This document shows, piece after piece, positions 1-18,646 of a stretch of DNA of 20,000 nucleotides. Source of the DNA: Raillietiella orientalis (Eukaryota); contig JAYWIR010000057.1 in NCBI GenBank assembly GCA_036172245.1, positions 797,681-817,680 of the forward strand, read 5' to 3'. Numbering within the stretch: the first letter of the stretch is position 1; each line of letters starts with the position of its first letter. The notes beneath the pieces were generated by a model that was given only the letters and a program-made list of their open reading frames with translations, was not told the origin of the DNA and searched no databases. The translations under genes and the position numbers were made by a program.

Positions 1-142
1 ACATAAGAACATCGAGAAAAGCTAAATACACACAATTCACTAATCCACACTCATCAAAAGCGACAAAAGGGTAGCAGGCAATTAGCCCTTTCCCCTTGAA
101 TCAACGCGAGAGCTACGTCGAGGCACGTCCGTCCTACTCGAG

Positions 143-180
143 ACTACACTTTGATCTTAGCCAAAAGGCCGAGAAGCGAT
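143..180 (-). pseudogene. U2: U2 snRNA 5' fragment (nt 1-38), truncated within the branch-point-pairing sequence
   Basis: Reverse complement reads ATCGCTTCTCGGCCTTTTGGCTAAGATCAAAGTGTAGT, the canonical U2 5' end. It continues CTCGAG instead of the expected ATCTGTTC. Confidence 0.95.
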
Positions 181-290: not shown

Positions 291-1236
291 TCAGTTCTTC
301 TTGGAAAGAGATTTACTGGATATGTTATTGATAATCCGTCTGTCCGTTGACATTTTGTTGTAGTCTGGTTCCCAATTATCGAAAACCAGTATGTGTGGTG
401 GCTGAAAGTATTTAATGGAACCTTGAGACTTGCCGTCGATGATGATACCGTTCTTTAGGCTTTCTATGAATCCATACTGCACATGTTCCTGGTTGTCCCG
501 GGTGAAGTCAGTGACGAGAATTCTCCGTTGTAGATATACCGCATCGGCCTTCCTGCAGGAAGGCATGTAGATGGCCTTTTTTTTAAGGAAGAGAAATTTG
601 GCCATCCTTCTCTTCTCGGCGTTACCAACTGGGTCGTAAAACCAATATATTTTTCTCTCGTGAGGTTGATGTATAATGTCTAAGATTTTAAGTTGCCATT
701 CTTTGAGCTGAAGATTAGCGAGTGGGTTGGGATGTGTTCTGCTGCGGGATAATCGGAAACATTCTTTTGTAAAGTTGATGTTCTTTGCGTAAAACTTCGT
801 ATGGTGCTTGAGAATGAACTGTTCGCCTGCGCCATTTTCGATGAGTTGTAGGATCTGAAAAGAAAATGACCTTGAAATAGTCAACTACGCAGTTTGCTTA
901 CTTCTTCTTCATAAGTTTTTGCTTCTGCATCTTCGTTCAGATCTCCGTAAACCCATGCTTCTTTGTCCTGCTTGGTGCAGTACTTCAAGTTGCTCTGAGG
1001 TGAACCTTTTGCCTTTTCCAGGTGACACTTGTGAAAAGGCTTTCGGTGCAAACCAGGCATTCTCCTCGGTTCCTTCAATTTAAAGTAGCCCTGTAGTGCG
1101 GTGTACCGGTATCTGCCGTTTCTCTGCCAATACAGGCAAAGTGGCAGTTGCATCTGCACATTGTTTGATAGCTCTGAAGTTTTCGGAGTAGTTATACAAT
1201 GTAAGGCACCAATTGAAAAAAAAATGCATGAGGCAT
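291..1236 (-). pseudogene. rep: Endogenous CRESS-DNA virus Rep (HUH endonuclease + SF3 helicase), nanovirus/alphasatellite-like helicase type, frameshifted (Rep A)
   Basis: Stitching frames gives ATG at 1236, motif I WCLTLYNY, GRETADTGTPH/LQGYF (motif II, 1-nt deletion near 1097), HLEKAKGSPQSNLKYCTK (motif III), degenerate Walker A WFYDPVGNAEKR, Walker B VTDFTR, ESLKNG, motif C PPHILVFDN and KMSTDR. About four frameshifts. Confidence 0.93.
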
Positions 1237-1244
1237 GTTGGTAA

Positions 1245-1409
1245 TTCACTAATGGTGTGACTGTGGATCGGATGTTTGGTGGTTTATATACTAACACAGA
1301 CCCAAATTATGAAAAGATGTCTTCAGACAGATGGATTGTGCATTTCATTAATGAATCAAAAAGAACAAGCAAATATCCAATAAGTAGTATGTGTTCTTCA
1401 GGACGTTAA
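1245..1409 (+). pseudogene. rep: C-terminal fragment of a second, divergent CRESS Rep (Rep B)
   Basis: Not in the ORF track. The frame ending at TAA 1407-1409 reads NGVTVDRMFGGLYTNTDPNYEKMSSDRWIVHFINES, which aligns with Rep A NGIIIDGKSQG...VFDNWEPDYNKMSTDRRIINNISS with an internal deletion. Confidence 0.8.
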
Positions 1410-1795
1410 TATCTTATATCCCTAAGTCCTTTGAATTGCCAATACAATTTTCTCCAAATTCTAAAAATTGGAGCATTTTTTTGAATAACATTATTTTCCA
1501 GGATATCATTCTGTTGAGCCCATTCAGCTGGAAACTTGAATCCCACTACATGCTTCGCTATTATAGAATGACCAATCAACACATAAGAGCTCATTTCAGT
1601 TTGCTTTTCAGTACTAAACCAAGGACATTTAGGTCGATAATATATCACAGAATCACCCTTAGATGTCACCACAGACTGCTTCTCAACACAACTTCTACAA
1701 TACACAGACACATCTCTTTCTTTAAATTTATAAAAAAAGGAAGTCCTTTTGCTCTGATGCCAAGCTAAATTCTTCATGCATTCACTATACTTCAT
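1406..1795 (-). pseudogene. Putative CRESS virus capsid, C-terminal part
   Basis: 129-aa ORF in AT-rich DNA between the origin hairpin and Rep B, with its stop overlapping the Rep B stop (TTAA 1406-1409). RPKCPWFST and terminal LYWQFKG recall circovirus-type capsid C-termini. No Arg-rich N-terminus, so probably partial. Confidence 0.6.
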
Positions 1796-1826
1796 ATCAA
1801 CAAATTTAACTGCGTAGTTAGGCTGA

Positions 1827-1858
1827 GCGCAATCTGGTCAGTGTTACCCAGATTGCGC
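1827..1858 (+). other. CRESS rolling-circle origin stem-loop with nonanucleotide CAGTGTTAC
   Basis: GCGCAATCTGG (1827-1837) and CCAGATTGCGC (1848-1858) form a perfect 11-bp stem. The loop TCAGTGTTAC contains CAGTGTTAC (1839-1847), a NAGTRTTAC-type nonamer. Confidence 0.88.
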
Positions 1859-2185
1859 AGTTATCTGACCCTCTATTCATCTCGTCCTGCATCACATCTT
1901 GGAGTGACCAAGGTTGAAATTGACGCAGGGAGAGAAGATCTTCGGGACTGATTCCCTAAAATGCAGCCGAAGACTCAACAGATTCTAGCCGCCAATCATT
2001 AAAATTTAATGGGCGGCAGGAAATCCACGAATTGGCTTCCATCATTGAGGCTAGTTGCCTCAAAGGATGGGCAAAATCGTTTTGTGGCGCATGCCCGGCA
2101 CCAAGGAAAGAAGTCCGTCATTGCCGAGACCTCCATAGAAGGATGCGCGAAGGCACATAGAGCAGCGAAGTCGAAAGCTTGGAAC

Positions 2186-2505
2186 AGTGTCAGCATCCTG
2201 AACTGCACTTGCATTCTGATCCGCGCCATCGTCAGGATTCCAGAGGTGGCATCCCGAGGTTGAGCCATCAGGTCTTTCAGGCGGATCCTAGGCGTTTAGC
2301 CCGTTCTTTGGCGGCGTAGGGGGAGTACAAAAGAAAAAACAGGGTTCAGAGGACGGGGGCCACGAAGATGTTACAAATAGCCGCATGTTCCGGCAAGATA
2401 AACTAGCCATTAATTAAGGGGCTAGAGGCCAGCACTGCCTTATGAAGGCAGTCCGACCACGCCTCTTCGGCGCCGAAGTCGCCCAGTGGAACGCCAAGAT
2501 AAGTT
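2186..2505 (-). pseudogene. Decayed Tx1-like ORF2 fragments (post-RT region)
   Basis: YLGVPLGDFGAEEAWSDCLHKA and RIRLKDLMAQPRDATSGILTMARIRMQVQFRMLTL match element S (5325-6005). Contains stops and an internal deletion. Confidence 0.85.
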
Positions 2506-3120
2506 GGCGGCTTTTTTCCCGCTTTTACCGGCGAGCCGACGGTAAGCAGCACTGCTGGCTGGAGATCACGGTCGCCACCGTCCTCCATGGTGCTGCACGA
2601 ATTCGAGTGCTCGTCTCCGGGTAGCGTCGTTTGACGCCCCGGGGTGAGCTTTCGCACCTTCGCGGTCTGCGCTGCGCGCCTCAGGGCCTTAGCCCGGCGC
2701 GCTACGGCTACCGCGCTGGTGATCCGACGTGCGGCGATCTCAGACTCCGTTTCAGAGTGTGATTGAAGCGCGGGAGCTTCGCTTCTCACCTATCGTGTCG
2801 ATTCGGAGGTGCTCGCGGATGGAATCCCGACACTTCCTTTTTCGCGATCACCGGAACATCGTTCCTGACGATCGCAGCTTTCGCGCTATGCGCAACTGCG
2901 GTGGTAGCCTTGGCATCGGCATAGGGAACCTTCGCGCGAGTCTTCATCGCGCTACTGTTTCTTACATTGGAGAGGCTCTTGCAGTTAGGTTGCGGAGAAT
3001 TTTTGGGAGATTTTGTTTTTCTCCCTTTCTACACAACCTTCCACCCTCCGTCCGTTCCCTCGGAGCGCTCCTCGACTTTCGTGAGCAACGCTACCGGGCT
3101 TTCCTCCCCAACCGCCTGGG
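2506..3120 (-). pseudogene. Probable decayed Tx1-like ORF1 C-terminal low-complexity region
   Basis: GC-rich, Ala/Lys/Glu-rich translation containing EGTDGGWKVV*KGRKTK, comparable to EEGWQKVGKKK and ETEWQVATAKKSKK in the ORF1s of Z and U. Confidence 0.5.
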
Positions 3121-3301
3121 GAAAAAAATAAGCAGCCACGCCATCGCAAACAATAACTCAAGTTTTGTCGACTGCTTCAGGTTAATTGTGTGCAGCATAA
3201 TAAATTACACACAGAACGTCAAACACATTTTATTGACTTACTCATATTATGTCAGGTCACAAATTTGAAATAATAACAGCATAAAGAGATCAATAGTTCC
3301 A

Positions 3302-4344
3302 TTACCGCATGGGTTCAGCTGCAGGCAGTATTTTTTCATGTTGCCTTAGCCTGACCGCCCTTGGAAATCTATGCTCAAAGTTACGTATGGCTTCGTGCAA
3401 CTTGGTCCTGATGTCTGCTACACGGTCAGTACCCAGTTGTGGCGTAATCATTTCAATGGGTCTGAACGACAACTCCTTCGGAAATTTCGTGCAGAAGGCT
3501 TCCCATTCAGGCGAGAAATCCTCCTTTGACTCAACAGCCTGTTGCGACATATGGAGCGATCAACAGAGTGTGGACTTAGGGTGTATATTAAGCATGAATG
3601 ACCCAAGCCTTACCAACGTAGCATCTGCATCGTAGTCGTTGAAGTTGGTGCGGGCTTGACCGATGAGATATCTAGCTCCTATATGATAATACTTAGCGTT
3701 TGGCATAGTACTCGCATAGCACACGCCCATGAACACCATATTCTCAGGACAGTTTGCAGCTTGCGCCCAATTGACCAGACGTTTGAATGCCTGGTACGCC
3801 ACTGCATGCCGATGAGTTCCAGCAGGTGGGGACAGGAATCGAAGCAGAGCATCCTGGGATATAGTCACGGGTTTAAATGAGGGTCCTTGGACTGTGAAAG
3901 GCACTGATTCAATCATATGGGCAAATCCTGCCAGCTCCAGCACACGAAGAGTACTGCAAAAGTGACCTAATGTATGGGCCACATCCATCCCCTTCTTTTA
4001 AGATCTTTATCTTGCAAACAAAGAGCGCCAGACTTTTAGAGGATACCCTGCACCTCTAGTGTTATCTTCCCGGATACCGGTGTGATGATTAGTCAGCGAC
4101 CATGACACTTTTGTAGCTATAACTAGGACCATGCAATTCGTCGCTAGTTGCTGATTCAGGGCAGCTTGGCTGGCTGTTCGTTGGGCTGGTGTCAAATCAT
4201 GCCGTTGAGGAGTTGGTCGCCAGTCTCCATCCGGTATTAATACACCATTAATGGACCTATACCGAATCATATCATAGGTTAGCAGAGCATATATGCCGTT
4301 GATCATCAGCGTCAATTGCGCATCTTTGTATTGCTTGGTGCTGT
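3302..4344 (-). pseudogene. Endogenous RNA-virus nucleocapsid/capsid-like gene, tentatively qinvirus-like, 5'-truncated
   Basis: ORFs 4007-4351, 3560-3988 and 3302-3550 share one frame, split only by stops at 4007-4009 and 3560-3562. Intronless and lower in GC than the LINEs. Motifs ATKVSWSLTNHHTG, HTLGHFCST, PAGTH, YHIGARYL and PKSTL are recalled from qinvirus-like segment-2 proteins (unverified). AT-rich trailer at about 3122-3301. Confidence 0.55.
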
Positions 4345-4374
4345 TTATCACCCGGGTGCGCCGGGGCGTTTATT
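4345..4374 (-). repeat. Conserved LINE 3' terminal motif, copy 1 (S)
   Basis: AATAAACGC CCCGG CGCAC CCGGG TGATAA. Confidence 0.9.
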
Positions 4375-6857
4375 ACAAAACTATCCGGGAACAGAGTTCC
4401 CGAACAAGGAATACAGAAAAGACGAAGGAGGGGGGTCCCCGACACGCAGGTCGGTATACAGAAAGTCCGGAACTGGAGGGAGGGAACCACAAATACACAG
4501 ATAAAAAACAGAAATAAAGATATGGGGAAGGTAGGGACAGGGTACTTTGGTACGGCCGTTCCTTCCTTTCAGAACCGCCGATGGATGCCGGCGATCTCTC
4601 TCCTCACGCCCTCTGGTAGATGGGCCCACTCGGCAGCCGACGACATGCTCGCGCTGGCTAATCCGGTGGGCTGACGAAGAATGGCAAGCTTCTCCAACTC
4701 TCGGTGGGCCTTGTCGATGGCGTGGGTGCAACAGACCGTTGCGATGACAGCACCTAACGACAGGCCGCCTGGCATGAAGAAGCGGCTCATCAAGTCTCTC
4801 GCGGTGTCCCCCTGGTGCAGGAGAGCGGAGGACAGCCTCCGCCACAGTCCTAGGAGGGCACCGCAGTCCAGGATCAGGTGCGGGAACGTTTCCACTTCCC
4901 CGCACTGCTTACAGTTTGGGGAGACAACTCCCCCGGAGACACGGTTCGTCCGCTGGCTGGAGTGAAAACCCCAATGCACCAGCATGATGACGTCATGCTT
5001 CCATGAAAGGGGTAACAGAAGTGTTCAAACAGGAGGGAGGGACCACAAGTTCTTCGGGGGCACACTCAAGTGTTCACTCCACCGAAGGAGTCCCTTCGGG
5101 ATGTGGCCAGGCGTGGCGGAGTCTGCTAGCTCGCAAGTCCTCCAGCCGCCAATGTGTCGTGTTGTTCCTGCGATAGTGCGGGCGACCTCCCATCTCGCCG
5201 GTTCGCAGCTGTCATCTCTTGCCCTGAGGGCTGACAGCATGTCGGCGAGGGGCGTGACGGCCAGGCGAGTCCACTTCTGGCTGTTGCACACCTCATCCAC
5301 CGTGCAGTACGGGGAGAGGTGAACCTAACGGAGTTCCAGGAGGGAAACATCTTGGTGCTTTGCCCAGCCATGCAACGGTTCCTGCCACCAAACTTCAAAG
5401 TTCGTTGGGCGACAGGGAATCCATTCCTGGGCTGCCGGGAGCCGGTAGAGGGTTTTCAACGGGAAACCGTCGCTCCTCGTGGCGCGCTCCGTATGCGGCC
5501 GCAGCGACAGAAGTTCATCGCTGCCGGTGCAGCGCCGCAGGAGCAGACGCGCAGGAGCGAACCACGGGGTGGACCAAAGGTTGGCGCACAGGGTCAACAT
5601 CCGAAACTGCACCTGCAGCTCCATTCTCTCCAGCGTCAGGATACCTAAGTTTGCATCCCGACGCGGAGCCGCGAAGTCTTTGAGGCGGATCCTGGACCTC
5701 GCAGGTCCCCACAGAGCGTTCCTCAACAGGCTGTGCGCCTGGAGCTTGGCCGAGTAGGGGGCCGGGCAAACAAAAAGCAGGGGTCGCAAGAGGGGGGCAA
5801 CGAAGGTGTTAAATATCGCGGCCCGCTCCGACAGGAGGAACCTGCTATCGTGAAACGGGCTCAGAGCACTCGTAGCCTTCCGAAGGCAGTCCGACCACTT
5901 CCACTGAGCTGATGTTCTCCAGCAGAACGCCCAGATACTGGATGCAGGAAGCGGTCCGGATCCCCAGGCGGATCCAGTCGGACTGCCCCTCTCACGCCGC
6001 ACCAATACGAACGACCACGCTCTTGCTCCGGTTTACGCTCATACCCGCTCCCCTGCGAATCAGCTCGAAGAAATTATCGAGACTGGACGCCGGGGTGGTC
6101 ATGGGTAAAAGGAGAAGCAGGTCGTCGGCATAGACCGCCACGGCCGGAGTTCCCGGACAGGAGCTCGGCAGGTTGGCCAGAGTCAGCCTGTACGCCCTCA
6201 GCACCAACTCAAAGAAGATGCTGAAGAGCAGGGCGCTTAAGCTGTCTCCCTGCCTGATACCCCGCCCTATGGGAACGCCGTACACGTGGCGCCCGCTGAA
6301 AGAGATATAGCATAGCGCGTGGCGCCTGCAGGAGCGCAAGTAGGCGATGAGGTGCGTCGGGTGACCTAGGCGTTCCAGAATCTCCAGAAGGAGATCCTGG
6401 TTTACGCTGTCGAGCACTTTGCAGAGATCGACGGCGACCGTTAAGGCACCCGGCGTTCCATCGTGCCCTGAACACCGCCGCTTACCTTTGGCAGTGGCGA
6501 TTTCGGCTGCCTGGCTCTGCTGCGCCACGCGCTGCTGCAACTCGAACCATGTTCGCGCGAGGAAGAGATTCGCGTCCATGCACCGCCCCGTCTGCTCCGG
6601 ACTTACCAAGGACTCCGCGATTCTCCCCAGCCGCGCGACCCATAGCTTCGAGAAGAACTTGACGTCCGAAGTCACTAAGGTGATCGGACGCCAGTTGCTG
6701 AGGTGGCGGAAATCCCAGCCTTTCGGCAGGAGCCGCACCTTTGCTTAGCGGAAAGAAGCGGCAACATATCCCGTCTCCCGCATCAGCGAGGAAAGACTCA
6801 GCACCAGGGGGACGAGCTCCGACGCGAAGCACTGAAAGAACTCCGCGGGCAGGCCAT
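4345..6857 (-). mobile_element. Tx1/L1-type LINE segment S (subfamily 1): RT, C-terminal zinc finger, 3' UTR; decayed
   Basis: GLPAEFF, NWRPITL, GIRQGDSLS, YADD, CKQC...HLILDC. Several frameshifts and deletions (YAVP lost). 3' terminal motif at 4345-4374. Confidence 0.93.
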
Positions 6858-6858
6858 A

Positions 6859-7243
6859 CGTGCACAGCTGGCCAACGAGATGTGCGCTGCCATGAACGCG
6901 CGCAACTTGTTGGCCGGTGACGCCGGGAAAAATACGAGGATCGACCACATGTTCCTCGACAACCACCTGTGTTCGTGGGTGGGAAATCGAGGCGCAGTGC
7001 CATTCGAACTTGCCGACCATCCCCGGCTTGTGCTAGAGATACACCCGCGCGGTAGAGGTACACCCTCCACAGCGTGTCGTTTGCCAGGGGACTGGTTGCG
7101 CCTCGCAAGAGCAGCGCAACATCTTCGCTCGTTCCTGCAAGGCTTCCATCTGCAGTTGCTCGCGGACTGGGACGACTTCAAGAGCTCAGTCCGCGAGTTC
7201 TGCGACCAGTTTCCCCTAAACCGTCTCCCTCCAGGTTTCGGTG
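6859..7243 (+). mobile_element. Segment T: C-terminal half of a LINE AP endonuclease, inverted relative to its neighbours
   Basis: LANEMCAAMNARNLL...IDHMFLD...LADHPRLVL...LPPGFGV, closely similar to Z at 16440-16822. Confidence 0.9.
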
Positions 7244-7274
7244 TTGCCACCCGTGTACGCCCGGGGCGTTTATT
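7244..7274 (-). repeat. Conserved LINE 3' terminal motif, copy 2 (X)
   Basis: AATAAACGC CCCGGG CGTA CACGGG TGGCAA. Confidence 0.88.
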
Positions 7275-10200
7275 GAAAACTACAAAAACATTAAACTAGG
7301 CCCCACTAACGGCCGCACAGCACCGAACCTGGCGGAACGCCGGGACGGAGCCCGGCATGACGCTCCTCGGCAGTGGAGGGGGATGGGGAATAAAACAAAA
7401 ATAAAAATAAAGATATAGAAAACCAAAAAGAGTTTGGAGGGAGGGGAAGGGATCATTGTCCACTAGGAGGAGGGCCCATCCTTCGCAGGATGCCCTCCAG
7501 GTCCATCTTCATGCTTCCCAGATGGGGCCATCTCGCAGCTCTCCGCATGAAGCAGACCGCATACGGGATGACTACCCTCTCGTTGGCATCCACTGCGTCG
7601 CGAATGTCGCTCCACGCCGACACGATGCCTCGGATGCAGCAGAGGTCCCCGAGGGCTGCGGCGGGCTGCAGGGCGTCCCGCACGAAGAGGGGCCGAAGAA
7701 CGTCTCTGGGCGTGCTGCCCATTGGGAGCCCGAGTGTCGTCCCGAACCGTTCCCTCAGGGTTCGGAAAGCAGCACAGTCAACTAGTAGGTGGGAGAGCGA
7801 TTCCCGCTCCCCACACCTGGCCCACTCAGGGCTTACACTTCCTCGCGTGCAGTGGAAGCGGCGCGCGTTGCAGGGTATACCCCAGTGCAACAGCAGCAGC
7901 GCCGTCTCTTGCCACTTTAGAGGGAGAAAACTGGATCCGATGAGAATTGGGGGCCACTTGAGGTCATCCGTCGGGATGCCGAGCAGCTCGCCCCATCTCA
8001 GAAGTCCACGTGGGAGGGCACTAGGGGTCGTGGCGTCTGCCAGTTCTCCCATGGTCCAGCCGCTCATCTTTTTTCCCTTCCTGCGATTCAGCAGGAGACT
8101 TGCCACTTTGGCGTCCGGCCGCTGGTTAAGGCCCTCCGTAGGAAGGGCAGCGTCGAAGCCAAAGGGGTGGTCTCCGCCCACGTGCTCCTGGCGGGACACT
8201 CCAGAGTAGTCCGTAGGGTGCAGCAGGCGTTGGGGACGAGTCGCAGGCGGTTCCATTCACGTCCAGTCTGAAGGTTCAGCTTGGCACACGTGCCAACGGA
8301 TTCCTCCAGCCAGGCGGAGGAGTTGGCGGGGCTGCATACCGTCGAGCCGTTCTCTCTCACCAGGGATTCCATGCGCCCAAGGTGAAGGCCGCATTTTCTG
8401 AACTTCCGGCCGTGGCACAGAAGGTATGACGCGAGTCCTTGCGTCCTGGATACACGGCTGGCGAGGATGCGGGCTGGAAAGCACCAAGAGGTGCTTCATG
8501 TATTTGCTGCGATGGCGAGGGTGCGCCATTGCAGCTGTATGTGCAGGCGTTCCAGCGTCAAAGGGCCGAGACCGCCGTCCCGACGTGGAGCGCATAAGTC
8601 CTTTAGAGGCACACGTGGCCTCCCCATGCCCCAGAGGGCGATGCGGAGAAGGGCTTTCGTCCTCTTTTTCAACTCAGGGGAGACGGGGCACACAAAAAGC
8701 AGGGGGCGGAGGATGGTAGCCGCGAACGCGTTCCACACTGCGGCCCTTTCCGGCAGAAAGAACTTGCCTTCTAGGAACGGTCCGATTTCCAACTCTACCT
8801 TTTGGAGACGACCTGACCTGGCTTCTGCGAGGCAGAAGTCCCCCAACGGAACACCCAGGTACTTCAGGTACCTGGCCGTGGGAATCCCCATGCGGATCCA
8901 GTCAGGCCGTCGAGCCTACGTCGCACCCACCGGTACCACCGACGACTTCGCCTTGTTAACCTGCAATCCAGTCCCACGGCTTAGCAGATCGTAGAAATCC
9001 TCGACTGCGGTTGCCGGGGAGGACATGGGCAACATCAGCAGAAGATCGTCGGCGTATGCAGCTACTGCGGGCGTGCCAAGGCACCAGCTTGGTAAGGCAG
9101 CCAAAGTCACCCTGTACGCTCTCAGCACCAACTCAAAGTAGGTGCTGAAGAGCTGGGGACTGAGGCTATCGCCCTGCCGTATGCCCCGCCGCACCGGCAT
9201 GCCGTACACCTGTTGGCTGGAAAAGCAGATGTTAACAATGGCGTGGCGCCAGTAGGAGCGCAGGAAGGAGAGAAGGGAGGGTGGGAAGCCCATGCGACCC
9301 AGGAGCTCCAACAGTAGCTCCTGGTCAACGCAGTCGAACGCCTTATGGAGATCGACCGCGATCGCTAGGGCCCCCTTCCCAGCCCGGGTGTCCATTCCCA
9401 GCCCAGCTGGCGGCCCCAAAGTGGGGTTGCCAATCTTTCCGCCAGTGTCGTTTAGGCAGCGCTGCACATGGAACCATGTGCTCGCGAAGAACAGGTTGGC
9501 ATCCATACTTCTCCCGGGAACAGCGTATGTCTGCTCCGGGCTAATTATGGAGTCTGCCACCTGTCCTAGACGCGAAGCCCACAGTCCAGCGACCAGCTTG
9601 GCGTCCGTATTCACAATTGTGATCGGACGCCAGTTGCCTAGGGATCTCAGGTCTCCTCCCTTCGGGAGGAGCCTCACACGGGCTGACCGAAACGAGGCGG
9701 GAACGTCGCCTTCGTCTCGGATCAGCGCGGTCAACTGGAGCACCAGGGGGGCCAGCTCTGCTGCGAAGCATTGAAAAAATTCCGCAGGCAGGCCGTCCTT
9801 CCCTGGAGCCTTACGCCTCTTGAGCCTTTTAATACCGGCGAGAATTTCACCGGTAGAAAAAGGCTCGTTGAGGCTGTTCCTGTCCTCCTCCCCTATTGCC
9901 GGGGCTCCGTCCGGAAGCAGGAGCCGCGATGCGTCTCGCTCTGGGGGTGCCCTAGCGTAGAGGGAGGAATAGTAATGCCGCACGAGGCGCCTGATCGCGG
10001 GTGGGCCCGATCGCTCCCGGCCTTGGTCGTCCAGCAAGCTGGTCGACCCGGATTGCCAGGCTTGGCGCTGGGCTCCGGCTCGATATTCGGCCAGGCGACG
10101 GACATTGGGGGTCCTCTCGTACCGGCGGGCCTGTAAATAGGCCGTTTGGTTCCGAACCCCCTCCCCAAATCCGGGGGGCAGGCGGTGCAGGGGAACTCCT

Positions 10201-10584
10201 CGCAGAACTCGCGGACCGAGTCCTCTAAGAGGTCCCAATCTATGAGACTGCGGAGGGTGACGCCTCTCAGGAATTTGCGAAGGTGTTCCTGCGCACCTGA
10301 GAGCCGCGTCCAGTCCCCAGGGAGCCGCCTCGCCCTGGACGGGGGTCCTTTGTCGCGCGGGCAAACTTCGGCGATTATCCTGGAATGGTCCGACAGCGTC
10401 GACCCAAGTTTCCCCCGTTTGCCAACCCGTGAGCACAGGTGGGCATCCAGGATGAAGTGGTCGATGCTGCGGTCCATTCCCTCCGCGTCTGCCAACAAGT
10501 TCCGCGTGCGCATGGCAGCGCACAACTCGTTGACCGTGCGTTCTTGTGCTTCGGGCTCACCTGACAGCAGACGGAGATTAAAGT
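7244..10584 (-). mobile_element. LINE segment X (subfamily 2): endonuclease C-half, RT, zinc finger, 3' UTR
   Basis: FNLRLL...IDHF...SDH, APGKDGLPAEFF, NWRPIT, DLHKAFD, GIRQGDSLSP, YADD, KYLGV. Premature TAG at 8916-8918 and several frameshifts. Stop at 7453. 3' motif at 7244-7274. Confidence 0.95.
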
Positions 10585-10614
10585 TTATCACCCGGTCACG
10601 CCGGGGCGTTTATT
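10585..10614 (-). repeat. Conserved LINE 3' terminal motif, copy 3 (Y)
   Basis: AATAAACGC CCCGG CGTGA CCGGG TGATAA. Confidence 0.9.
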
Positions 10615-11460
10615 AATAATAAACTGGTCAGGGACAATGTCTCGAACCAACGACAGAACGACAGGGAACATAGACAAATTACCGGCACGCAGGCCTGGTA
10701 AACAAACCGCTCGCAACGTGGAAGGAACGAGGGGAAAACAAAAAAAAATCAAAAACTGGAGGGAAGGGTAACGGGTTTTTGGTTAGGCTCCGTACTCACG
10801 GGGATTTAAACGATGAGCACCTGAAATGTTCCGGAGCCTATGGGGACGCGGGTGTAAAAGGAAAATACAAAATTAGTTTATGGAGGGTAGGGCAATGATC
10901 ACCGGGTTGGCCGCTGCTGAGCGTGTGTAAACCGGCGGTGTGTTGCGGCGAGATTCCTTTTTGACTCCTCTGTCAAATGAGGCCATCTAGCGGATGCACC
11001 CATGTAAAAGGATGCTTTACTGATTACCTCTTGGTGCTGTCCGTTGATTACCAACGCCTGGCGGACGGAAACTATCGCGCGTATGCAACCGATGGTTGCA
11101 ATCCTTGCGCTTAGGGACAGCCGCTCGGCGTGAAGAATCGTCGCAGCAAGTCTCTTGCGGTGTCCACGGGATGCAATAGTGCTGTTGACAGCCTACGCCA
11201 TAGTCCTTGTAGGACACCGCAGTCCAGAAGTAGGTGCGGGATCGACTCCGTCGACCCGCACGGAACGCAGTTGGCAGATGCAAGTCCCCCGGAGTCTCGA
11301 TGCCAACGCTCGTTACACTGAAAACCCCAGTGAACGAAAAGCAGCACAGCTTGTTTCCAAGCAAGGGGGAGCAGCGAACTGTCAACACACTGTGGAGGGA
11401 CTACAAGTTCTTCGGGGATGACAGCAAGTTCTTCTGCCCACCGGAGGAGTCCCTTTAAGT
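10585..11460 (-). mobile_element. LINE segment Y (subfamily 1-like): ORF2 C-terminus and 3' UTR
   Basis: KGLLRWAEEL...LPLAWKQ...HWGFQC...CVPC...HLLLDC, similar to the S tail. Premature stop at 11111. 3' motif at 10585-10614. Confidence 0.9.
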
Positions 11461-11570
11461 ACAACGAGGAGTGGCGGCGTCCGCCAAATCACTCGTCTTC
11501 CAGGCGCCAAGGAGTTTTCTCGCGAGTGTTTTCAGGGTTTTTAGGTGTGAGCGGTTGTTCCTGGGCAGAG

Positions 11571-14500
11571 TTGCCCGAGGACGCCGCAAAGACGGCGGTG
11601 GGGGGCGAGCGCGCCTCGTCCCCCCAGCCCATGGATGTGGGGGCGTTCTCCCCCACGGAATCGTCCCCCGGCCCGGCGAGGGCTTGGAGCGCGGTGGTGG
11701 CGGCGCCTGCGCCGCCCCCCGCAGAGGAACAGCGGGCGTATATGGCCGACGGCTACAACCCGGCCCTACTTTATAAGGTAGGTGGCCTATACTCCCCCGC
11801 GGTCTTGCGGTCCTTCGCCGCGGAGTTTAAAAAGCTAAAAGTCCCGGAGGAAGAAGTCCTCGGGCTTTCGGTTAGAAGTGGCGGGCAGCTTGTTGAGCTG
11901 AACTGCAAGTCTGCAGGGATGGCTCAGCAGCTGCTCCGCCTGCCGGTGACCGTGAACGGTCGAAGAATCTTCCCGTTCACGGCGCACAATTCCATCGTTG
12001 TCCATCTCACCGGAATTACCATGCGAATGGCAAAGACCGCCGTTCGCGAGAGTCTGGAAAAGTTCGGGACGGTCCACGCGTTGTGGGCAAAACCCAATGT
12101 CCTGGGTTACACCAGGGCATTCAGTGGTTACACCGCTGCCCGCGTGACCGTCCGAGCCGAGGGTGGGCTACCCCACAGACTGCAGGTCGGGGAGGAGGAG
12201 ATCGACCTGTGGTATGTGGGGAAACCCGTTTACTGCGGCTTTTGCCAGGTGTCGGGGCACCTGAAGAAAAAGTGCCCCAACATCGTGTGCTTAGGCTGCG
12301 GTGGGAAGGGGCACATCAGGCGGATGTGCCCCAACAGGAAAAGGTCCGGTCCCGTTGGCGCAAGGAAGGAAGAGACGCCGAGGGAAGAGGACAAGGGCCA
12401 GGAAATGGCCGAATCCCGCCCGGCCAACCAACCCGATGCTCAGCCATCCTGCAGCACAGAACCTGCTGGAGAGAACGCCGAGAACGAGGAAGGTTGGCAA
12501 AAGGTAGGGAAGAAAAAGCCCCAGAAGAAGGAGGCAAAAAAGGTAAACAAGGCGGCGCCGAAAAAGCAGAAACCGGTCGTCCGCGCTTGTACGGTGAAAA
12601 TCGAACGCATCTCGATCTCCAGAGCCGTAAAGAAAGTAACGGTAAAGGCGATCGATACCGTCGATCCTGAGCCGGTTGTGCCCGCAGTGACGTCACCTGA
12701 GTGCCATTTCGCGCAGTGCCTACTGCCGGATGGTGCTCCTGCGCTCGGGGAGGAAGTTTGTTCCAGATTGTCAGGACCCTTTACGATCACAGAGATCATC
12801 TCCGCCATCAGTAAATTAAAAGCAAGGAAGGCACCAGGGGAGGACGGCCTGCCCGCGGAGTTTTACAAATACTTCGCGCCAGAGCTGCCCCCCCTGGTGC
12901 TCAGGTTAAGTCAGCTGATCCGCGAACACGACGAAGTTCCCGCCTCGTTCCGGTCAGCAAAAGTACGTCTCCTGCCGAAGTCAGGAGACCTACGCAACAT
13001 TGGCAACTGGCGTCCCATCACAGTAGTGAATGCGGACGCAAAGTTGTATGCCAAGTTGTGGGCTGAGCGTTTGGGGCGAGTGGCCGCTTCCGTGGTGAGT
13101 CCCGAGCAGACCTACGCTGTTCCCGGACGAACCATGGAGGCCAACCTGCTCCTCGCCAGCTCATGGTGGCAGTTGCGACAACGCGTTGCTCAGGATGGTC
13201 AAGGAAGCCTCGCGCTCCCCTCTGACCAAGAAGATCGGATAGAGGGTGGGATGGACTCGGCGGGAGCCCTTGCCGTCGCGGTCGATTTGCACAAAGCATT
13301 CGACTGCGTCGACCAGGATCTCCTTCTGGAGCTCCTGGAACGCATGGGCTTCCCGGCCGTGCTCCAGTCCTACCTGCGCTCCTGCTGGCGCAACGCGTCT
13401 ATTAATATTTGTTTCAGCGGCCGGTACGTGTACGGCGTGCCAGTGCGCCGCGGCATACGGCAGGGTGACAGCCTGAGCCTCTTGCTCTTCAGCATCTACT
13501 TCGAGTTGGTGCTGAAGGCTTACAGGGTAACTCTGGCAACCCTGCCGAGCTCGTGTGCCGGCACGCCTGCCGTGTCGGCCTATGCAGACGATCTTCTGCT
13601 GCTGCTTCCCGGGTCCACCCCGGCGAGTGCGCTCGAGGAATTCTTCGAGTTGCTGCGCCGCGGGACGGGCCTGGAGGTGAACAGGGCGAAGTCGTCCATG
13701 GCTTGTGTTGGCTCGGCGTGGGCTGGACGGTCGGACTGGATCCGCTTGGGGATCCCCACGGGCAGGTGCTTCAAGTACCTTGGCGTTCCGTTGGGTGACA
13801 TCTGCGCAGCAGAAGCCTGGTCCGACCGTCTCCAAAAGGCAGCGTTGGCGATCGGTCCGTTCCAAGAAAGCAAGTTCTACTTGCAGGAACGGGCCGCGGT
13901 GTGGAACGCGTTCGCGGCCCCCCTCCTTCGCCCCCTACTTTTTGTGTGCCCCGCCCCTTATTTTGTCCGAAAAAGAGCAGCGGGCCTCCTGAGGACAGTC
14001 CTTTGGGGCAAAGGGAGGTCCCGTGTGAGACTCAAAGACTTGTGCGCTCCACGTAAGGACGGTGGACTTGGCCTACTTACGCTGGAGCGCATGGAAGTAC
14101 AATTACAGTTCAGAACGCTCGCCCTTGCAGCGGAACTGTGGGACACGCCCTGGTGCGTTCCAGCACGCCTTCTGGCCCAACGTGCCTCTGGATATGGCGG
14201 ACTCTCGTCGTTTCTCTGGGCTTGCGACCGCAGACAAGCGCATTGCGGCTTTCACCTGCGTCGCATGGCCGTTGTGGCTCGGAAGAACGCATGGATCTCC
14301 TGCCTTCCTGGGAACCACTCGGCATGGCTGCACGAGTCAGTCTCCTCTTGGGAAAAGATCCACGTACCGGCAGGTACAAAGAACACTTGCCTGAAAAGGC
14401 ACGCCCGCTGGACGCTGCAGGAAATCGTGCAATCCCACGATCAGTTTCTGTGGGCCTTTATAACCCCCCTTGCTCCAGTGCTGCCCTTTTTAGTAAACGC

Positions 14501-15152
14501 CAGGAACAGCAGAGAGCAGGGAAAATGGACAGTGTCCTGCACCATAGATGGTAGGACACGAAAGATCGAGGCGTGGACATCTCGGCAGCTTACGGACGCT
14601 GCGACGCCGAGTGTCCCGCCTAACTTAATTCGACGCTGGGGCGAGCTACTCGGACTATCTCCGGAGGAGATGAAGTGGCCCCCAGCGTCCTGGAACAGTG
14701 TATCCCTCCCCTTGAAATGGCAGGAGGTGGCGTTGCTGGTTTTACACTGGGGTCTACCCTACAAAGCATGCCTCTCTCACTGCACACGGGGGGCTGTGGA
14801 TGCCAATTGCGACCGGTGCGGAGAAAAAGAGACATTTCCCCACCTTCTTATTGAGTGCAATGCTCTCCACCCTCTCTGGGATCGGCTTGCAACGATCCTA
14901 AACATTCGCGGAGGTGGCCCTAAAGAAATTTTTAGGCGCCTCTTCTTGCATGACGCCTTGTCCCCACCGGCCTCAGTAGCAGTTCTTTGCTGCATCAGAG
15001 GGGTCGTGGCGGCTTGGAACGCCACAAGAAGAAGGCGCCAAGTTAGCGGCAATGCTACATATTGGACCCGCCTCTTTGTGAGGAACATTTGCAGGTGGCG
15101 ACACCTGGTTGAACGACGGACGCAGCTTGTGAAGATCCTGAACAGGATCTAG
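11571..15152 (+). CDS. Uninterrupted chimeric ORF: Z ORF1 N-part (2x CCHC) fused in frame to W reverse transcriptase and zinc finger; no endonuclease
   Basis: The 1244-codon open frame (11418-15152) contains CGFCQVSGHLKKKC, CLGCGGKGHIRRMC, KAPGEDGLPAEFY, DLHKAFD, YADD (13581) and CDRC...HLLIEC. Start uncertain: TTG 11571 (aligns to the U ATG) or ATG 11631. Confidence 0.8.
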   Translation: MPEDAAKTAVGGERASSPQPMDVGAFSPTESSPGPARAWSAVVAAPAPPPAEEQRAYMADGYNPALLYKVGGLYSPAVLRSFAAEFKKLKVPEEEVLGLSVRSGGQLVELNCKSAGMAQQLLRLPVTVNGRRIFPFTAHNSIVVHLTGITMRMAKTAVRESLEKFGTVHALWAKPNVLGYTRAFSGYTAARVTVRAEGGLPHRLQVGEEEIDLWYVGKPVYCGFCQVSGHLKKKCPNIVCLGCGGKGHIRRMCPNRKRSGPVGARKEETPREEDKGQEMAESRPANQPDAQPSCSTEPAGENAENEEGWQKVGKKKPQKKEAKKVNKAAPKKQKPVVRACTVKIERISISRAVKKVTVKAIDTVDPEPVVPAVTSPECHFAQCLLPDGAPALGEEVCSRLSGPFTITEIISAISKLKARKAPGEDGLPAEFYKYFAPELPPLVLRLSQLIREHDEVPASFRSAKVRLLPKSGDLRNIGNWRPITVVNADAKLYAKLWAERLGRVAASVVSPEQTYAVPGRTMEANLLLASSWWQLRQRVAQDGQGSLALPSDQEDRIEGGMDSAGALAVAVDLHKAFDCVDQDLLLELLERMGFPAVLQSYLRSCWRNASINICFSGRYVYGVPVRRGIRQGDSLSLLLFSIYFELVLKAYRVTLATLPSSCAGTPAVSAYADDLLLLLPGSTPASALEEFFELLRRGTGLEVNRAKSSMACVGSAWAGRSDWIRLGIPTGRCFKYLGVPLGDICAAEAWSDRLQKAALAIGPFQESKFYLQERAAVWNAFAAPLLRPLLFVCPAPYFVRKRAAGLLRTVLWGKGRSRVRLKDLCAPRKDGGLGLLTLERMEVQLQFRTLALAAELWDTPWCVPARLLAQRASGYGGLSSFLWACDRRQAHCGFHLRRMAVVARKNAWISCLPGNHSAWLHESVSSWEKIHVPAGTKNTCLKRHARWTLQEIVQSHDQFLWAFITPLAPVLPFLVNARNSREQGKWTVSCTIDGRTRKIEAWTSRQLTDAATPSVPPNLIRRWGELLGLSPEEMKWPPASWNSVSLPLKWQEVALLVLHWGLPYKACLSHCTRGAVDANCDRCGEKETFPHLLIECNALHPLWDRLATILNIRGGGPKEIFRRLFLHDALSPPASVAVLCCIRGVVAAWNATRRRRQVSGNATYWTRLFVRNICRWRHLVERRTQLVKILNRI
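12683..12697 (+). repeat. Target-site duplication of W, left copy
   Basis: CGCAGTGACGTCACC, identical to 15404-15418. Confidence 0.93.
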
Positions 15153-15403
15153 AGGACCTTTCGGCGCGCAATGTGATTCCCCTCCCGCCCCCCCCTATCC
15201 CCCAAACATAAGTGTCCTCCCCAATTTTTACATTTTCTTTTTTGCTTTGTTTTTTATTCCCGTTGCCGCGCGCTTGAAGGACCTCGCCGGTTGAGAACCG
15301 GCAAGAAGCAGGCTGCCTTGTGGTGAACCATCAGGCTCTCCACACGAAAATAACATGTATTTTTATTTTTTCAAATAAACGCCCCGGCATATCCGGGTGA
15401 AAG
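12698..15403 (+). mobile_element. LINE segment W (subfamily 3): 5'-truncated, TSD-flanked insertion with intact RT
   Basis: Begins at PECHFAQCLLPDGAPA (compare X PERDASRLLLPDGAPA). Stop at 15152, C/T-rich 3' UTR, terminal motif at 15374-15402, flanked by a 15-bp direct repeat. Confidence 0.93.
15374..15402 (+). repeat. Conserved LINE 3' terminal motif, copy 4 (W)
   Basis: AATAAACGC CCCGG CATAT CCGGG TGAAA, followed by G and the TSD. Confidence 0.9.
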
Positions 15404-15418
15404 CGCAGTGACGTCACC
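15404..15418 (+). repeat. Target-site duplication of W, right copy
   Basis: CGCAGTGACGTCACC. ORF1 resumes here (AVTSPSADD...FAQAAEELAA, matching U FARAAEELAA). Confidence 0.93.
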
Positions 15419-15965
15419 ATCAGCTGACGACAATGCCGTGCCGGCATTGCCAGCGAAGGACGTCTGCGCGCCGATCGATGAAGCCGCCCCTGTCGCGCCT
15501 GCGCAAAGCGTCGGTGCGGAAAGCGAGGAGGCGGCGCGTATAACGGACGCGACCTTCGCGCAGGCCGCGGAAGAGCTGGCAGCCATGTTACGGCAGCCTG
15601 CCAAGGACGAGAAGAAGGCCTTGAGACGACCGGCAACGGTGAAGGGCCCTTGAAAATTCCGAGTCCGAAACCGAAGCCGGTTGTTCTACTTCCGAAGCCG
15701 TGCCTAAGAGGAAGGCTGGCAAGAAGACCGGTTGCCCGAGACGAGTCATCCCTCAGGTGGAGGAGGCCATGTCCTCGGGCACGGAGGAGGAGGCAATGTG
15801 CGTCGCGCCACGCGGCCCCACTCCGATCCGTGTCTCGGAAGCCAGCCCCATGGAAGTCGCTGTGGACGACGTGCTCCCGTGTGAGCAGCCGACCGTCGTC
15901 ACGGCCGCCAACGAGACGCCTCCCGCAAGGAAGGAGGCCGCCTCCACCCCACAATAAACACACCA

Positions 15966-16822
15966 ATGCGTGGGCTCGGCTCCTGCCGCCGCTTGCGCAT
16001 CATGTGTTGGAACGTCAACGGGTTGCGCGACGACGGTAAGAGGCGAGACGTAGCCGCCATACTGCGAGACTTTGACCTGGTGCTCCTGCAAGAGACGCAC
16101 GTTCTCAAAGCAGAAGAAGTCCAGGAAATCGAAAGAATCGCGGGAGGGCGGCTACTGCGGAGTGACCTTTATGCTTAAGCCAGCCGTCGACAACGCACTG
16201 CGCAGCGTCAGGTTCGACGAGGACGGTCGAGTTGGGCAGCTTGCGTTCAAGTGGTCCGACTCGATCGTTTTCGTGGTGACGAACCTGTACGCTCCGGTGA
16301 GCAGCCACAGGGCCGAGGAACGCACTGCGTTCTTCGAATCCCTGCGGCGAGACTGGTTGGCTGAAGCAAGCGTACGGCGGGCGCACCTCATCGCGGGCGA
16401 CTTCAATCTCCGCCTGCTGGCAGGTGCGCCCAGCAGTCAAGCACGACTGGTCAACGAGTTGTGCGCAGCCATCAACGCGCGCAACTTGTTGGCCGGTGAT
16501 GCCGGGAGAGATCGGAACATCGACCACATGTTCCTCGACAACCACCTGTGCACGCGGGTGGGAACTCGAGGAACGCTCCCGGCACAGCTGTCCGACCATC
16601 CACGGCTCGTGCTCGAGATACATCCACGCGACAAGGGCCCTCCCCTGAAAACGTGGCGCCTGCCAGGGGACTGGTTGCGCCTCGCAGGAGCGGCGGAACA
16701 TCTGCGCGCATTCCTGCGAGGATTCCATCTTGAGACGCTCGCGGACTGGGACGAAATGAAGTGCTCAGTCCGCGAGTTTTGCGACCAGTTTCCCCTGGAA
16801 CGTCTTCCGGCGGGCTTCGGCG
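15966..16822 (+). pseudogene. AP endonuclease domain of Z ORF2
   Basis: WNVNGL, LQETH, NLYAP, AGDFN, IDH, SDH. Frameshift near 16150. Homology ends at LPAGFGV. Confidence 0.93.
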
Positions 16823-16853
16823 TTATCACCCGGGTACGCCCGGGGCGTTTATT
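16823..16853 (-). repeat. Conserved LINE 3' terminal motif, copy 5 (V)
   Basis: AATAAACGC CCCGGG CGTA CCCGGG TGATAA. Confidence 0.9.
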
Positions 16854-18646
16854 AATAAACTCTACATGCGTGGTACAAGGCCCCACCACGGCCGTAAACA
16901 CAGGACCTGTCGGGACACCGGGACGCAGCCCGGCGTGGCACTCCCCGACAGCGAAAGGGGATGAGGGGAAAAACAAAAAGAAAAAAGAAAGAAATAAAAA
17001 AAACAAAAAGAGTTTGGAGGGCAGGGTAGGGATCACTGGTCGCTGTGAGGAGGGCCCATCCTTCCAAGAAAGCCCTCGAGGTCTCTCCGCATATCTCCCA
17101 GCTGGGGCCATCCGGCAGCTCTCCGCAAGAAGCGTTGGGCGTATGGGATGACATCCCTCGCCTGTGGACCCACTCCTTCGTTGTTGGCGTCGCTCCATGC
17201 CGCCACGATGCCACGGACACAGCACAAGGCTGCGATGGCTGCGGCTGGCTGCAGTGCGTCCTTCACGAAGAGGGGCCGAAGAACGTCTCTGGGGGTGCTG
17301 CCCGTAGGGAGCCCGAGGATCGTCCCGAACCGTTCCCAAAGGGGTCGGAGGGCAGCACAATCCACAATAAGGTGGGGAAGCGACTCCCGCTCCCCGCACC
17401 TGGCACACGCAGGATCCACAGCTCCCCTCGTCCAGTGGAAGCGGCGCGCGTTGCAGGGTAGACCCCAGTGCAACAGGAGCAACGCCGACTCTTGCCACTT
17501 GAGGGGCAGGATCCTGGATTCCTTCATCACCGGGGGCCACTTCAGCTCATCCCTGGGGATGGCGAGCAGCTTGCCCCATCTTAATAACCCTCGCGGCTGG
17601 ACGCTCGGGGTCGTGGCGTCGGCCAGTTCTCCTGTTGTCCAGCCGCTAATCAACTTCTCGCGTCCCTCGATGCAGCAGGAGACTTGCCACCTCGGCGTCC
17701 GACTGCTGTGAAGTGCCCTCCTCAGGAAGGGCAGCGCCGTAGCTAGGCAGGTCGTCTCTGCCCACGTGCATCTTGCTGGACTCTCCAGGAGATTCCGCAG
17801 CGTGCAGCGGACGTAGGGGCTGCATCGGAGACGATTCCACGTTTCGTGGCTCCTCTGGTTAACCGCTGCCCACGTTCCAATATTCTCCTCCAGCCAGGCG
17901 GGGGAGTTGGCGGGGCAGCAAACCATCCAGCTGTTCTCCTTGGCCAATGTTGCCATGCGCCCGAGCAGTAGGCCGCATCTTCGCATCTTCCGGCCACGGC
18001 TCAGAAGAAAAGACGCGAGTCCATCGCACCGGGACACACGGCTGGCCAGGAGGCGGGCCGGAGTGCACCAAGGGGTGCTCCACATCTTCGCTGCGATGGC
18101 GAGGGTTCGCCACCGCAGCTGCTTCTCCACGCGCTCCAGCGTCAGGAGGCCAAGACCGCTGTCCCGACGCGGAGCGCACAAGTCCTTCAGAAGGACTCGG
18201 CCCCCCCCCTTGCCCCAAAGGGCGATACGGAGGAGGTCCTTTGTCCTCTTCTTCGATTCCACGGTGGGGGGGCAAACAAAAAGCAAGGGGCGGAGGATGG
18301 GGGCCGCGAAGGCGTTCCAAGCCGCGGCCCGTTCCGGCAAGTGAAACTTGCCTTCCAGGAACGGGCCGATCGCCGTCTCGACTTTTTGGAGGCAGCTGGA
18401 CCACGCTTCCGCAGGGGAGTAGTCCCCCAACGGCACACCAAGGTACTTGAAGCACCTCGCCGTGGGGATCCTCAGACGGACCCAGTCCTGCTGCCCTGCC
18501 CACGCCGCACCTATTGGCACAACCGACGACTTCGCCCTGTTAACCTGCAGTCCGGTCCCGCGGCTGAGCAGATCGAAGAAGTCTCCGACCGCCTTTGCCG
18601 GGGTGGACATTGGCAACAAGAGCAGAAGATCGTCGGCGTACGCTGC
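16823..18646 (-). mobile_element. LINE segment V (subfamily 2): ORF2 from YADD to the 3' end
   Basis: Open frame from AAYADD to the stop at 17033, with KYLGV and CARC...HLIVDC. Tail GRMGPPHSDQ resembles X RRMGPPPSGQ. 3' motif at 16823-16853. Confidence 0.93.

What the first reader, a model, noticed from the sequence alone, without database searches (positions are those of the whole stretch)
1245..1795. Hidden second CRESS genome: rep 3' end and cap-like ORF converge on a shared TTAA
A plus-strand frame absent from the ORF track encodes N..P.Y.KMSSDRW, a Rep C-terminus distinct from Rep A. Its TAA (1407-1409) overlaps the TAA of the minus-strand 129-aa ORF (1406-1408). This tail-to-tail arrangement is typical of ambisense CRESS genomes and supports the capsid call. 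It starts within about 10 bp of the Rep A start, so two related viruses appear fused back to back.
Basis: partly seen in the sequence, partly recalled or inferred. Interest (0 to 1): 0.7.

Follow-up and report, generated by a model that had tools for sequence, protein, structure and literature searches.

The report
Virus fragment nested in viral fossil
A 514-base piece of one small circular DNA virus (the tail ends of its replication and coat-protein genes) sits upside-down inside the replication-origin region of a second, related, dead virus embedded in a eukaryotic chromosome; it is a neat but ordinary viral fossil, not a hidden second genome.

Summary
The letters are as reported: plus-strand TAA 1407-1409 overlaps minus-strand TAA 1406-1408. 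The peptide is a Rep helicase C-terminus (21.6 bits, best of 1000 shuffles 7.3). The 129-aa ORF is the C-terminal part of a ~300-aa, Arg-rich-tailed, probably circovirus-like capsid protein (fold not confirmed).

It is not a second genome fused back to back. Virus B contributes only 1293-1806 (514 bp). This piece is inserted, inverted, between the TATA-like box and the origin hairpin of virus A. The hairpin at 1827-1858 and bases 1245-1292 belong to A. Both B genes are cut at the junctions, and the ORF's ATG is internal.

Among 30 A-type origins, only this locus and its 95%-identical duplicate carry the insert: one event. The genome holds at least 150 Rep matches, often in patchworks with LINEs. 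Rep introns are retained (25 unspliced, 0 spliced), so integration was at DNA level. Most likely mechanism: end-joining capture in the host chromosome (~0.6); rival: a chimeric replicon formed during co-infection (~0.27). The virus lineage looks undescribed. The scan had already noted CRESS fossils elsewhere in this genome, but not this nesting.

The parts
291..1236 (-). Rep A gene, broken (several frame changes, e.g. near 1185 and 1096; the one near 1096 is shared with the duplicate copy); HUH endonuclease half and SF3 helicase half
   Evidence: PF02407 7e-6, at cut-off, on frame 884-1306; frame map against other copies; tree places it in clade A
855..901 (-). 47-nt GT-AG intron between the endonuclease and helicase halves of Rep A, retained
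   Evidence: intron-spanning pattern in 25 places of G000, spliced-junction pattern in 0; splicing itself not shown
1237..1292 (-).
   Evidence: matches A-type copies to 1290-1292; 8 of 10 pattern matches in the genome run straight on into the origin region, the other 2 are this locus and its duplicate
1293..1806 (.). 514-bp insert from virus lineage B, inverted relative to A's virion strand; replaces ~3 nt of A; no target-site duplication, no poly(A), 0-2 nt possible microhomology
   Evidence: 69-74% nt to B-type copies L003, L004, L005 over 258-506 nt; junction comparison
1293..1409 (+). 3' end of Rep B (38 codons plus stop): end of helicase motif C region and Arg-finger S-x-D-R-W (motif names recalled)
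   Evidence: 21.6 bits vs best shuffle 7.3; 60% aa to L004
1406..1409 (.). Shared TTAA: overlapping stop codons of rep B (+) and cap B (-)
   Evidence: sequence; TTAA or CTAG in 5 of 6 other places
1406..1806 (-). 3' part of the lineage-B capsid gene; the 129-aa ORF (1795-1406) starts at an internal Met; the gene's 5' part is absent
   Evidence: 38.2 bits vs best shuffle 7.5 against an A-type capsid profile without B members; reciprocal hit E 1e-7; 4 of 4 B-type copies examined continue upstream with a T-N/H-P-x-E-E motif that the window lacks
1807..1866 (+). Virus A origin region: iteron-like inverted repeat, 11-bp hairpin 1827-1858, nonamer CAGTGTTAC at 1839-1847 (the duplicate copy reads CAGTATTAC)
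   Evidence: fold -15 kcal/mol, z -4.3, 0 of 200 shuffles; B-type origin in L003 has a different stem
1876..2501 (-). LINE fragment abutting the origin; virus A's own capsid gene is absent here
   Evidence: tblastn to the window's LINE ORF, E 5e-12

Best explanation
SHOWN (about 0.95): 291-1866 is an endogenous fragment of CRESS virus A (rep, leader, origin; no capsid) into which a 514-bp piece of a sister-lineage virus B (rep 3' end plus capsid 3' part, with their native overlapping stops) was joined in inverted orientation, 20 nt upstream of the origin hairpin. It happened once, before a local duplication whose copies are now 4-5% apart. INFERRED: both viruses infected the same host lineage; a broken double-stranded piece of B was patched by non-homologous end joining into a DNA break in the A sequence in the host chromosome, either during A's integration or later, as part of a cluster that keeps collecting viral and LINE scraps. 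The element is dead: Rep A is frameshifted, both B genes are truncated, and the open 129 codons are compatible with neutral drift. Any remaining function would be as a template for small RNAs (untested).
For: Sharp reciprocal homology boundaries at 1292/1293 and 1806/1807. In 26 of 30 A-type origins the Rep match lies 97-182 nt upstream; in this locus and its duplicate 628-636 nt; 2 have no Rep. 15 of 15 distinct uninterrupted A-type intervals have 4 nt between TATA box and iteron (this survey could only see uninterrupted ones). No TSD, no poly(A). DNA-level integration: origin and promoter kept, intron kept in 25 places, spliced form in 0. Patchworks are the rule: of 12 multi-hit regions mapped, 9 hold LINE pieces, 3 hold both A- and B-type pieces, 3 hold pieces of an RNA-virus-like gene, one of them 24 nt from a CRESS capsid piece. 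Neutrality: dN/dS 0.53, p 0.24 between the two copies; P(no stop) about 0.33 at 5% divergence; 270 of 680 same-length windows of the duplicated blocks are gap-free.
Against: The junction lies 20 nt from the origin hairpin, a known recombination hot spot of replicating ssDNA viruses (PMC3187698, passages), which fits the pre-integration rival equally well. No empty-site allele of this very locus was found: both copies carry the insert. The insert has no indel between the copies while Rep A has 6 in 932 columns (P of none about 0.19). The 12 mapped regions were picked for having many hits. The capsid fold is unconfirmed.
Confidence: 0.6

Rival explanations
1. Pre-integration chimera: in a cell co-infected by A and B, non-homologous recombination next to A's origin produced a defective replicon (A rep + inverted B piece + A origin, no complete capsid gene) that depended on a helper virus and then integrated as one unit.
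For: Junction 20 nt from the hairpin; the element ends about 8 nt past the hairpin and lacks A's capsid gene; origins are recombination hot spots and defective rearranged molecules are known (PMC3187698, passages); both lineages demonstrably met the same host.
Against: Seen only once (plus its duplicate) among 30 origins; the insert separates the origin from the rep leader; non-viral LINE and RNA-virus-like scraps are joined to CRESS pieces in the same way across the genome.
Confidence: 0.27
2. LINE reverse transcriptase copied a B capsid mRNA (running into the antisense of rep) and template-switched into the A sequence.
For: LINE pieces surround the locus; RNA-virus-like insertions show that viral RNA was reverse-transcribed in this genome (recalled identity).
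Against: No poly(A) or TSD at the junctions; no spliced Rep junction found in the genome (0 vs 25). The insert itself spans no intron, so this is not excluded for it.
Confidence: 0.07
3. One reading: two viral genomes fused back to back near their rep starts, the hairpin belonging to the second virus and the 129-aa ORF being its capsid gene.
For: Order of features on the map; convergent rep/cap stops.
Against: A-type sequence lies on both sides of the B piece; the hairpin is A-type and reads on the strand opposite to B's capsid, whereas in B copy L003 and in 17 of 30 A origins the nonamer is on the capsid strand; the ORF is 5'-truncated.
Confidence: 0.02
4. The truncated capsid ORF is kept by the host under selection (for example as an interfering protein).
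For: Open in both copies; dN/dS point estimate 0.53; no indels.
Against: Not significant (p 0.24); joint chance of staying open about 0.13 under neutrality (0.33 x 0.40); no promoter evident upstream on its strand; neighbours are decayed.
Confidence: 0.03
5. Assembly chimera of contaminating viral reads.
For: The window lies at a contig end; many different CRESS sequences in one assembly can signal contamination (criterion used in PMC10193959, passage).
Against: Both junctions recur in a 95%-identical copy on a 12-Mb contig within a 13.4-kb shared block; genes are decayed and interleaved with host LINEs.
Confidence: 0.01

Closest known systems
Endogenous cressdnavirus elements with paired Rep and Cap (krikovirus EVEs, PMC10193959; Entamoeba/Giardia elements, PMC7493932; circoviral CVe, PMC6069186)
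   Same: Decayed rep and cap pieces of small circular ssDNA viruses in host chromosomes, in native convergent layout, sometimes tandem (passages seen for the first two papers; listing and abstract start only for the third).
   Different: Here a piece of one lineage is nested, inverted, inside the origin region of another; the lineage is distant from everything found (best Rep hits 26-36% over full length; no capsid relative).
Ambisense CRESS genomes with the nonamer on the capsid strand (cyclovirus-like organisation; label recalled)
   Same: Rep opposite to the nonamer strand in 26 of 30 origins, capsid downstream on the nonamer strand in 17 of 30; Rep with an intron.
   Different: PF02443 is never reached at cut-off (best 24.3 vs 36.2 bits); Rep C-terminal S-x-D-R-W resembles nanovirus/alphasatellite-type Reps rather than Circoviridae (recalled, not tested against named references).
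Defective or recombinant sub-genomic molecules of geminiviruses and circoviruses (PMC3187698)
   Same: Origin retained, rearranged or foreign sequence joined near it by non-homologous recombination (passages).
   Different: Those are episomal and observed in infections; this is a chromosomal fossil, and its joining before integration is not shown.
EVE- and transposon-rich piRNA clusters of arthropods (bioRxiv 10.1101/396382)
   Same: Dense mixture of transposon and viral fragments (passages of the paper).
   Different: No small-RNA data here; host not identified; viral sense strands are mixed in orientation.

Membership tests
Cressdnaviricota (CRESS-DNA virus), endogenous | Rep with N-terminal HUH endonuclease | tested here: met
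   PF02407 at or above cut-off in window Rep A and in B-type copy L005; absent from the B insert itself, which holds only the 3' end
Cressdnaviricota (CRESS-DNA virus), endogenous | Rep with C-terminal SF3 helicase | tested here: met
   PF00910 E 4e-4 to 8e-4, just under cut-off, in A- and B-type copies; B tail scores on an environmental Rep profile; the window's own helicase frame gave no Pfam hit
Cressdnaviricota (CRESS-DNA virus), endogenous | Origin hairpin with NANTATTAC-type nonamer | tested here: met
   1827-1858, one mismatch in the window, canonical in the duplicate; belongs to A; a B-type origin is seen only in L003
Cressdnaviricota (CRESS-DNA virus), endogenous | Single jelly-roll capsid protein with basic N-terminal arm | tested here: inconclusive
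   For: longer relative has an Arg-rich N-terminus, Atlas score 0.96, 208 of 256 features, clusters 92-100% viral with PF02443 on 14-49% of members, recognition value below the tool's threshold; weak PF02443 hits E 0.013-0.15 in 4 of 4 relatives, 4 genome hits vs 0 of 14 controls. Against or blank: models pLDDT 32 and 30; hhalign max 1.3% against 45 clusters of environmental non-Rep frames; no PDB, PHROG or representative hit
Cressdnaviricota (CRESS-DNA virus), endogenous | Circular ssDNA genome | not testable with these tools
   Only chromosomal copies; tandem origin-cap-rep units are consistent with a circular parent
Circoviridae (Cyclovirus-like) | Ambisense layout, nonamer on the capsid strand | tested here: met
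Circoviridae (Cyclovirus-like) | Capsid matching PF02443 at cut-off | tested here: not met
   best 24.3 bits vs 36.2; not filed as a member
Circoviridae (Cyclovirus-like) | Rep inside the Circoviridae clade | not tested
   No named reference Reps were in the tree
Anicreviridae (lead from an earlier scan note) | Rep inside the family clade | not tested
   Only a table row listing the family was seen (PMC11945456); no reference sequences in hand
   514 bp only; origin is A-type; both genes cut
LINE-made retrocopy (TPRT) | Poly(A) tail and target-site duplication | tested here: not met

The most novel reading that the evidence does not exclude
The locus is a fossil of a defective chimeric replicon made by non-homologous, origin-proximal recombination between two co-infecting sister lineages (Reps about 38% identical) of an undescribed animal CRESS family, captured in the germline. 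It would be direct fossil evidence of co-infection and illegitimate recombination in a virus group known only from more than a hundred endogenous pieces in one genome, with a capsid that has no detectable relative among 1.8 billion representative proteins.
Probability: 0.27. Interest if true: 0.5.

Novelty: new member of a known kind. Interest (0 to 1): 0.3.

Why it matters
The single locus is a modest curiosity: it shows that two lineages of one virus group infected the same host lineage and that their pieces were joined by end joining. The wider setting matters more: at least 150 Rep matches and about 30 origins from an apparently unclassified CRESS group tie that group to a host, record its genome plan (ambisense, intron in rep, overlapping stops in lineage B), and supply a capsid family with no detectable outside relatives. 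It also warns against reading a short open frame beside an origin as a small capsid gene of a second genome.

Tried and rejected
ADP-ribosyltransferase idea for the 129-aa ORF: Atlas leads at 0.84-0.86, below the tool's threshold; dropped once longer capsid-like relatives appeared. Direct searches with the ORF: no Pfam, PHROG (41) or 5.8-billion-protein hit (13). Longer relative: none; the profile search of 1.84 billion representatives gave 1 hit, a repetitive 890-aa protein judged spurious; PDB none meaningful (37). Two structure predictions were unusable (pLDDT 32.3 with 9 rows, 30.5 single), so no fold search was run. Profile against 396 frames of 100 environmental loci: best E 1.4; hhalign against 45 clusters: best 1.3%. 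Origin pattern in viral and metagenome contigs: 1 and 3 matches; the one I read is a large-phage contig, and one metagenome match has the same length and range; the other two I did not read, though their frames were among the 396. IMG/VR scan with an endogenous Rep gave 3 distant loci at 25-30%. Sequencing runs: none was listed. Selection on the ORF: not significant. Recurrent insertion at this site: not seen. Literature searches listed nothing whose title or abstract start describes one CRESS fragment nested in another; I read passages of six papers only, and the library lacks most subscription journals; no supplements were opened.

Full report
1. Observation. The plus frame 1245-1406 is open, holds NTDPNYEKMSSDRW and ends at TAA 1407-1409. 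The minus frame 1795-1409 (129 aa) ends at TAA 1408-1406; the two share TTAA. The peptide is Rep-derived: against a profile built only from 120 environmental Reps it scores 21.6-22.5 bits at positions 251-278 of 287, and 0 of 1000 shuffles reach that (best 7.3-8.0). The first 16 residues (1245-1292) do not score. An 11-bp hairpin at 1827-1858 with the nonamer CAGTGTTAC on the plus strand lies just beyond the finding (z -4.3).

2. Setting. The window is the end of contig C57 of a 210-Mb eukaryotic genome, G000. The genome gave 150 scored Rep matches (263 candidates), 24 matches to the ORF and 74 to a longer relative. A helicase tree of 15 endogenous and 45 environmental rows separates clade B (5 rows, 100/99) from clade A plus a nested third type (10 rows, 98/99); all endogenous rows form one side of a branch (94/90, below the starred threshold). 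The window's Rep A is in A; the window's B tail was too short to include, and is tied to B by its DNA matches. The host is probably an animal (inference from LINE types, a U2-bounded insertion and RNA-virus-like pieces; not tested).

3. Anatomy. A-type copies match the window up to 1290-1292 and, where the origin region aligns, resume at 1807-1809 only about 3 nt further on in their own sequence (L006, L008, L012, L031, L041, L044, L050). B-type copies start matching at 1291-1294 (L004, L005, L019, L020, L023, L030, L055), and L003 runs to 1808. So 1293-1806 is a 514-bp B-type insert. It replaces about 3 nt of A, has no target-site duplication and no poly(A), and at most 2 nt of microhomology at either end. 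Of 30 fetched A-type origins (31 found), 26 have the Rep match 97-182 nt upstream on the opposite strand, 2 have none, and 2 (this locus and its duplicate) have it 628-636 nt away; 17 have a capsid match within 500 nt downstream on the nonamer strand. The hairpin is therefore A's. In B copy L003 the origin has another stem and reads on the capsid strand; the insert's capsid is on the minus strand, so B is inverted relative to A. A's own capsid gene is missing: a LINE fragment begins about 10 nt after the origin region.

4. The ORF. It is the C-terminal part of a longer protein. All four B-type copies examined continue upstream with a shared motif that the window lacks, so the ATG at 1795 is internal. 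It scores 38.2 bits against a profile of 40 A-type rows with no B member (best of 1000 shuffles 7.5), and a 307-aa relative finds it reciprocally at E 1e-7. That relative begins with an Arg/Lys-rich arm, as most ssDNA capsids do (PMC11945456, passage), and its nearest Atlas clusters are cressdnavirus proteins with PF02443 on 14-49% of members (0.96, 208 of 256 features; recognition below threshold). PF02443 hits four of four relatives weakly (E 0.013-0.15), once over the C-terminal stretch that aligns with the window ORF, and four genome places against 0 of 14 control genomes, never at cut-off. Against or blank: both structure models were unusable, hhalign to 45 environmental clusters gave at most 1.3%, and no outside homologue was found. 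I put the capsid call at about 0.9, from position, arm and weak independent hits, not from a fold.

5. The shared stop. At the aligned column, 5 of 6 other places read TTAA or CTAG; CTAG keeps a stop on both strands. The overlap is thus a native feature of lineage B carried along in the insert, not a product of the fusion.

6. Age and decay. A copy on contig C1 shares both junctions within a 13.4-kb block of 95-96% identity. Between the copies Rep A differs by 25 of 932 sites and 6 indels, the insert by 24 of 514 and none. Rep A changes frame at several places, one shared by both copies. The ORF's dN/dS is 0.53 (p 0.24), and staying open has a neutral chance of about 0.33 for stops times 0.40 for gaps (270 of 680 windows). 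Against a more distant B copy the last 55 codons give dN 0.24 and dS 1.3: selection acted in the viruses, and is not shown in the chromosome.

7. Mechanism. Shown: one inverted, blunt or near-blunt joining of a B piece into A. Integration of these viruses was at DNA level: promoter and origin are present, and the Rep intron (47 nt at 901-855; lead from notes e1-7589806 and e1-7589380) is retained in 25 genome places with 0 spliced junctions. Inferred: where the joining happened. Of 12 multi-hit regions mapped, 9 mix CRESS and LINE pieces, 3 hold A- and B-type pieces, and 3 hold RNA-virus-like pieces, once 24 nt from a capsid piece (regions chosen for many hits). That favours end-joining capture in the host chromosome (0.6). 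But origins are recombination hot spots in replicating ssDNA viruses (PMC3187698, passages), the junction is 20 nt from the hairpin, and no empty allele is in hand, so a defective chimeric replicon formed in a co-infected cell stays live (0.27). A LINE-made retrocopy (0.07), a host-kept protein (0.03), back-to-back genomes (0.02) and an assembly artefact (0.01) are unlikely.

8. Comparison with the known. It works like, and is, an endogenous cressdnavirus element; paired rep-cap fossils are published (PMC10193959 and PMC7493932, passages). The best of 265 outside Reps are 26-36% identical over full length, so the lineage looks undescribed. Nine literature searches listed no title or abstract start on CRESS-in-CRESS nesting; the library is partial and I read passages of six papers only. 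Earlier scan notes describe other CRESS fossils in this genome, one nested in LINEs; none matched this insert by sequence.

9. Verdict. Observation partly confirmed, interpretation partly supported: two viruses, yes; a hidden second genome fused back to back, no. New member of a known kind; interest 0.3. The most novel reading not excluded, a fossil inter-lineage defective replicon, has probability about 0.27 and would merit about 0.5.

Noticed in passing
window 140-180 (-), and L055 6965-10000 plus window 1-177: The 5' ~40 nt of U2 snRNA end a ~3.2-kb insertion that the duplicate copy lacks; its frames carry weak C2H2 zinc-finger hits. Looks like the 5' part of a U2-targeting LINE that carried its target piece along (Utopia-like; label recalled, not tested).
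   Followed up: partly
window 883-894 and 1808-1819: A 12-mer in the Rep A intron equals the iteron-like 12-mer beside the origin. Only 3 of 30 distinct introns show its core, two of them this locus and its duplicate: chance, or a Rep-binding site in one sub-lineage.
   Followed up: partly
window 3305-4369 (-); second copy in L055 (window -5591..-5060): Broken frames that resemble a jingchuviral nucleoprotein (recalled resemblance; no Pfam, PHROG or PDB hit); relatives lie beside CRESS pieces in 3 of 12 mapped regions.
   Followed up: partly
window 4700-20000: Stack of LINE pieces with RT, endonuclease and zinc-knuckle domains, mostly on the minus strand, including one 1272-codon open frame at 11334-15152 (+).
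   Followed up: no
window -14367..2094 vs G000:C1:8090096-8076776: 13.4-kb block shared at 95-96% identity, with no match at 88% identity or more continuing it on either side in the stretches fetched: a segmental duplicate or a divergent haplotype.
   Followed up: partly
L027 (G000:C62) and L033 (G000:C27): A third capsid type goes with Reps that nest inside clade A on a long branch: possible capsid exchange among these viruses.
   Followed up: no
G000, genome-wide: At least 150 Rep matches (263 candidates, 150 scored), 74 matches to one capsid type and 31 exact A-type origin cores: an unusually heavy load of CRESS fossils.
   Followed up: partly
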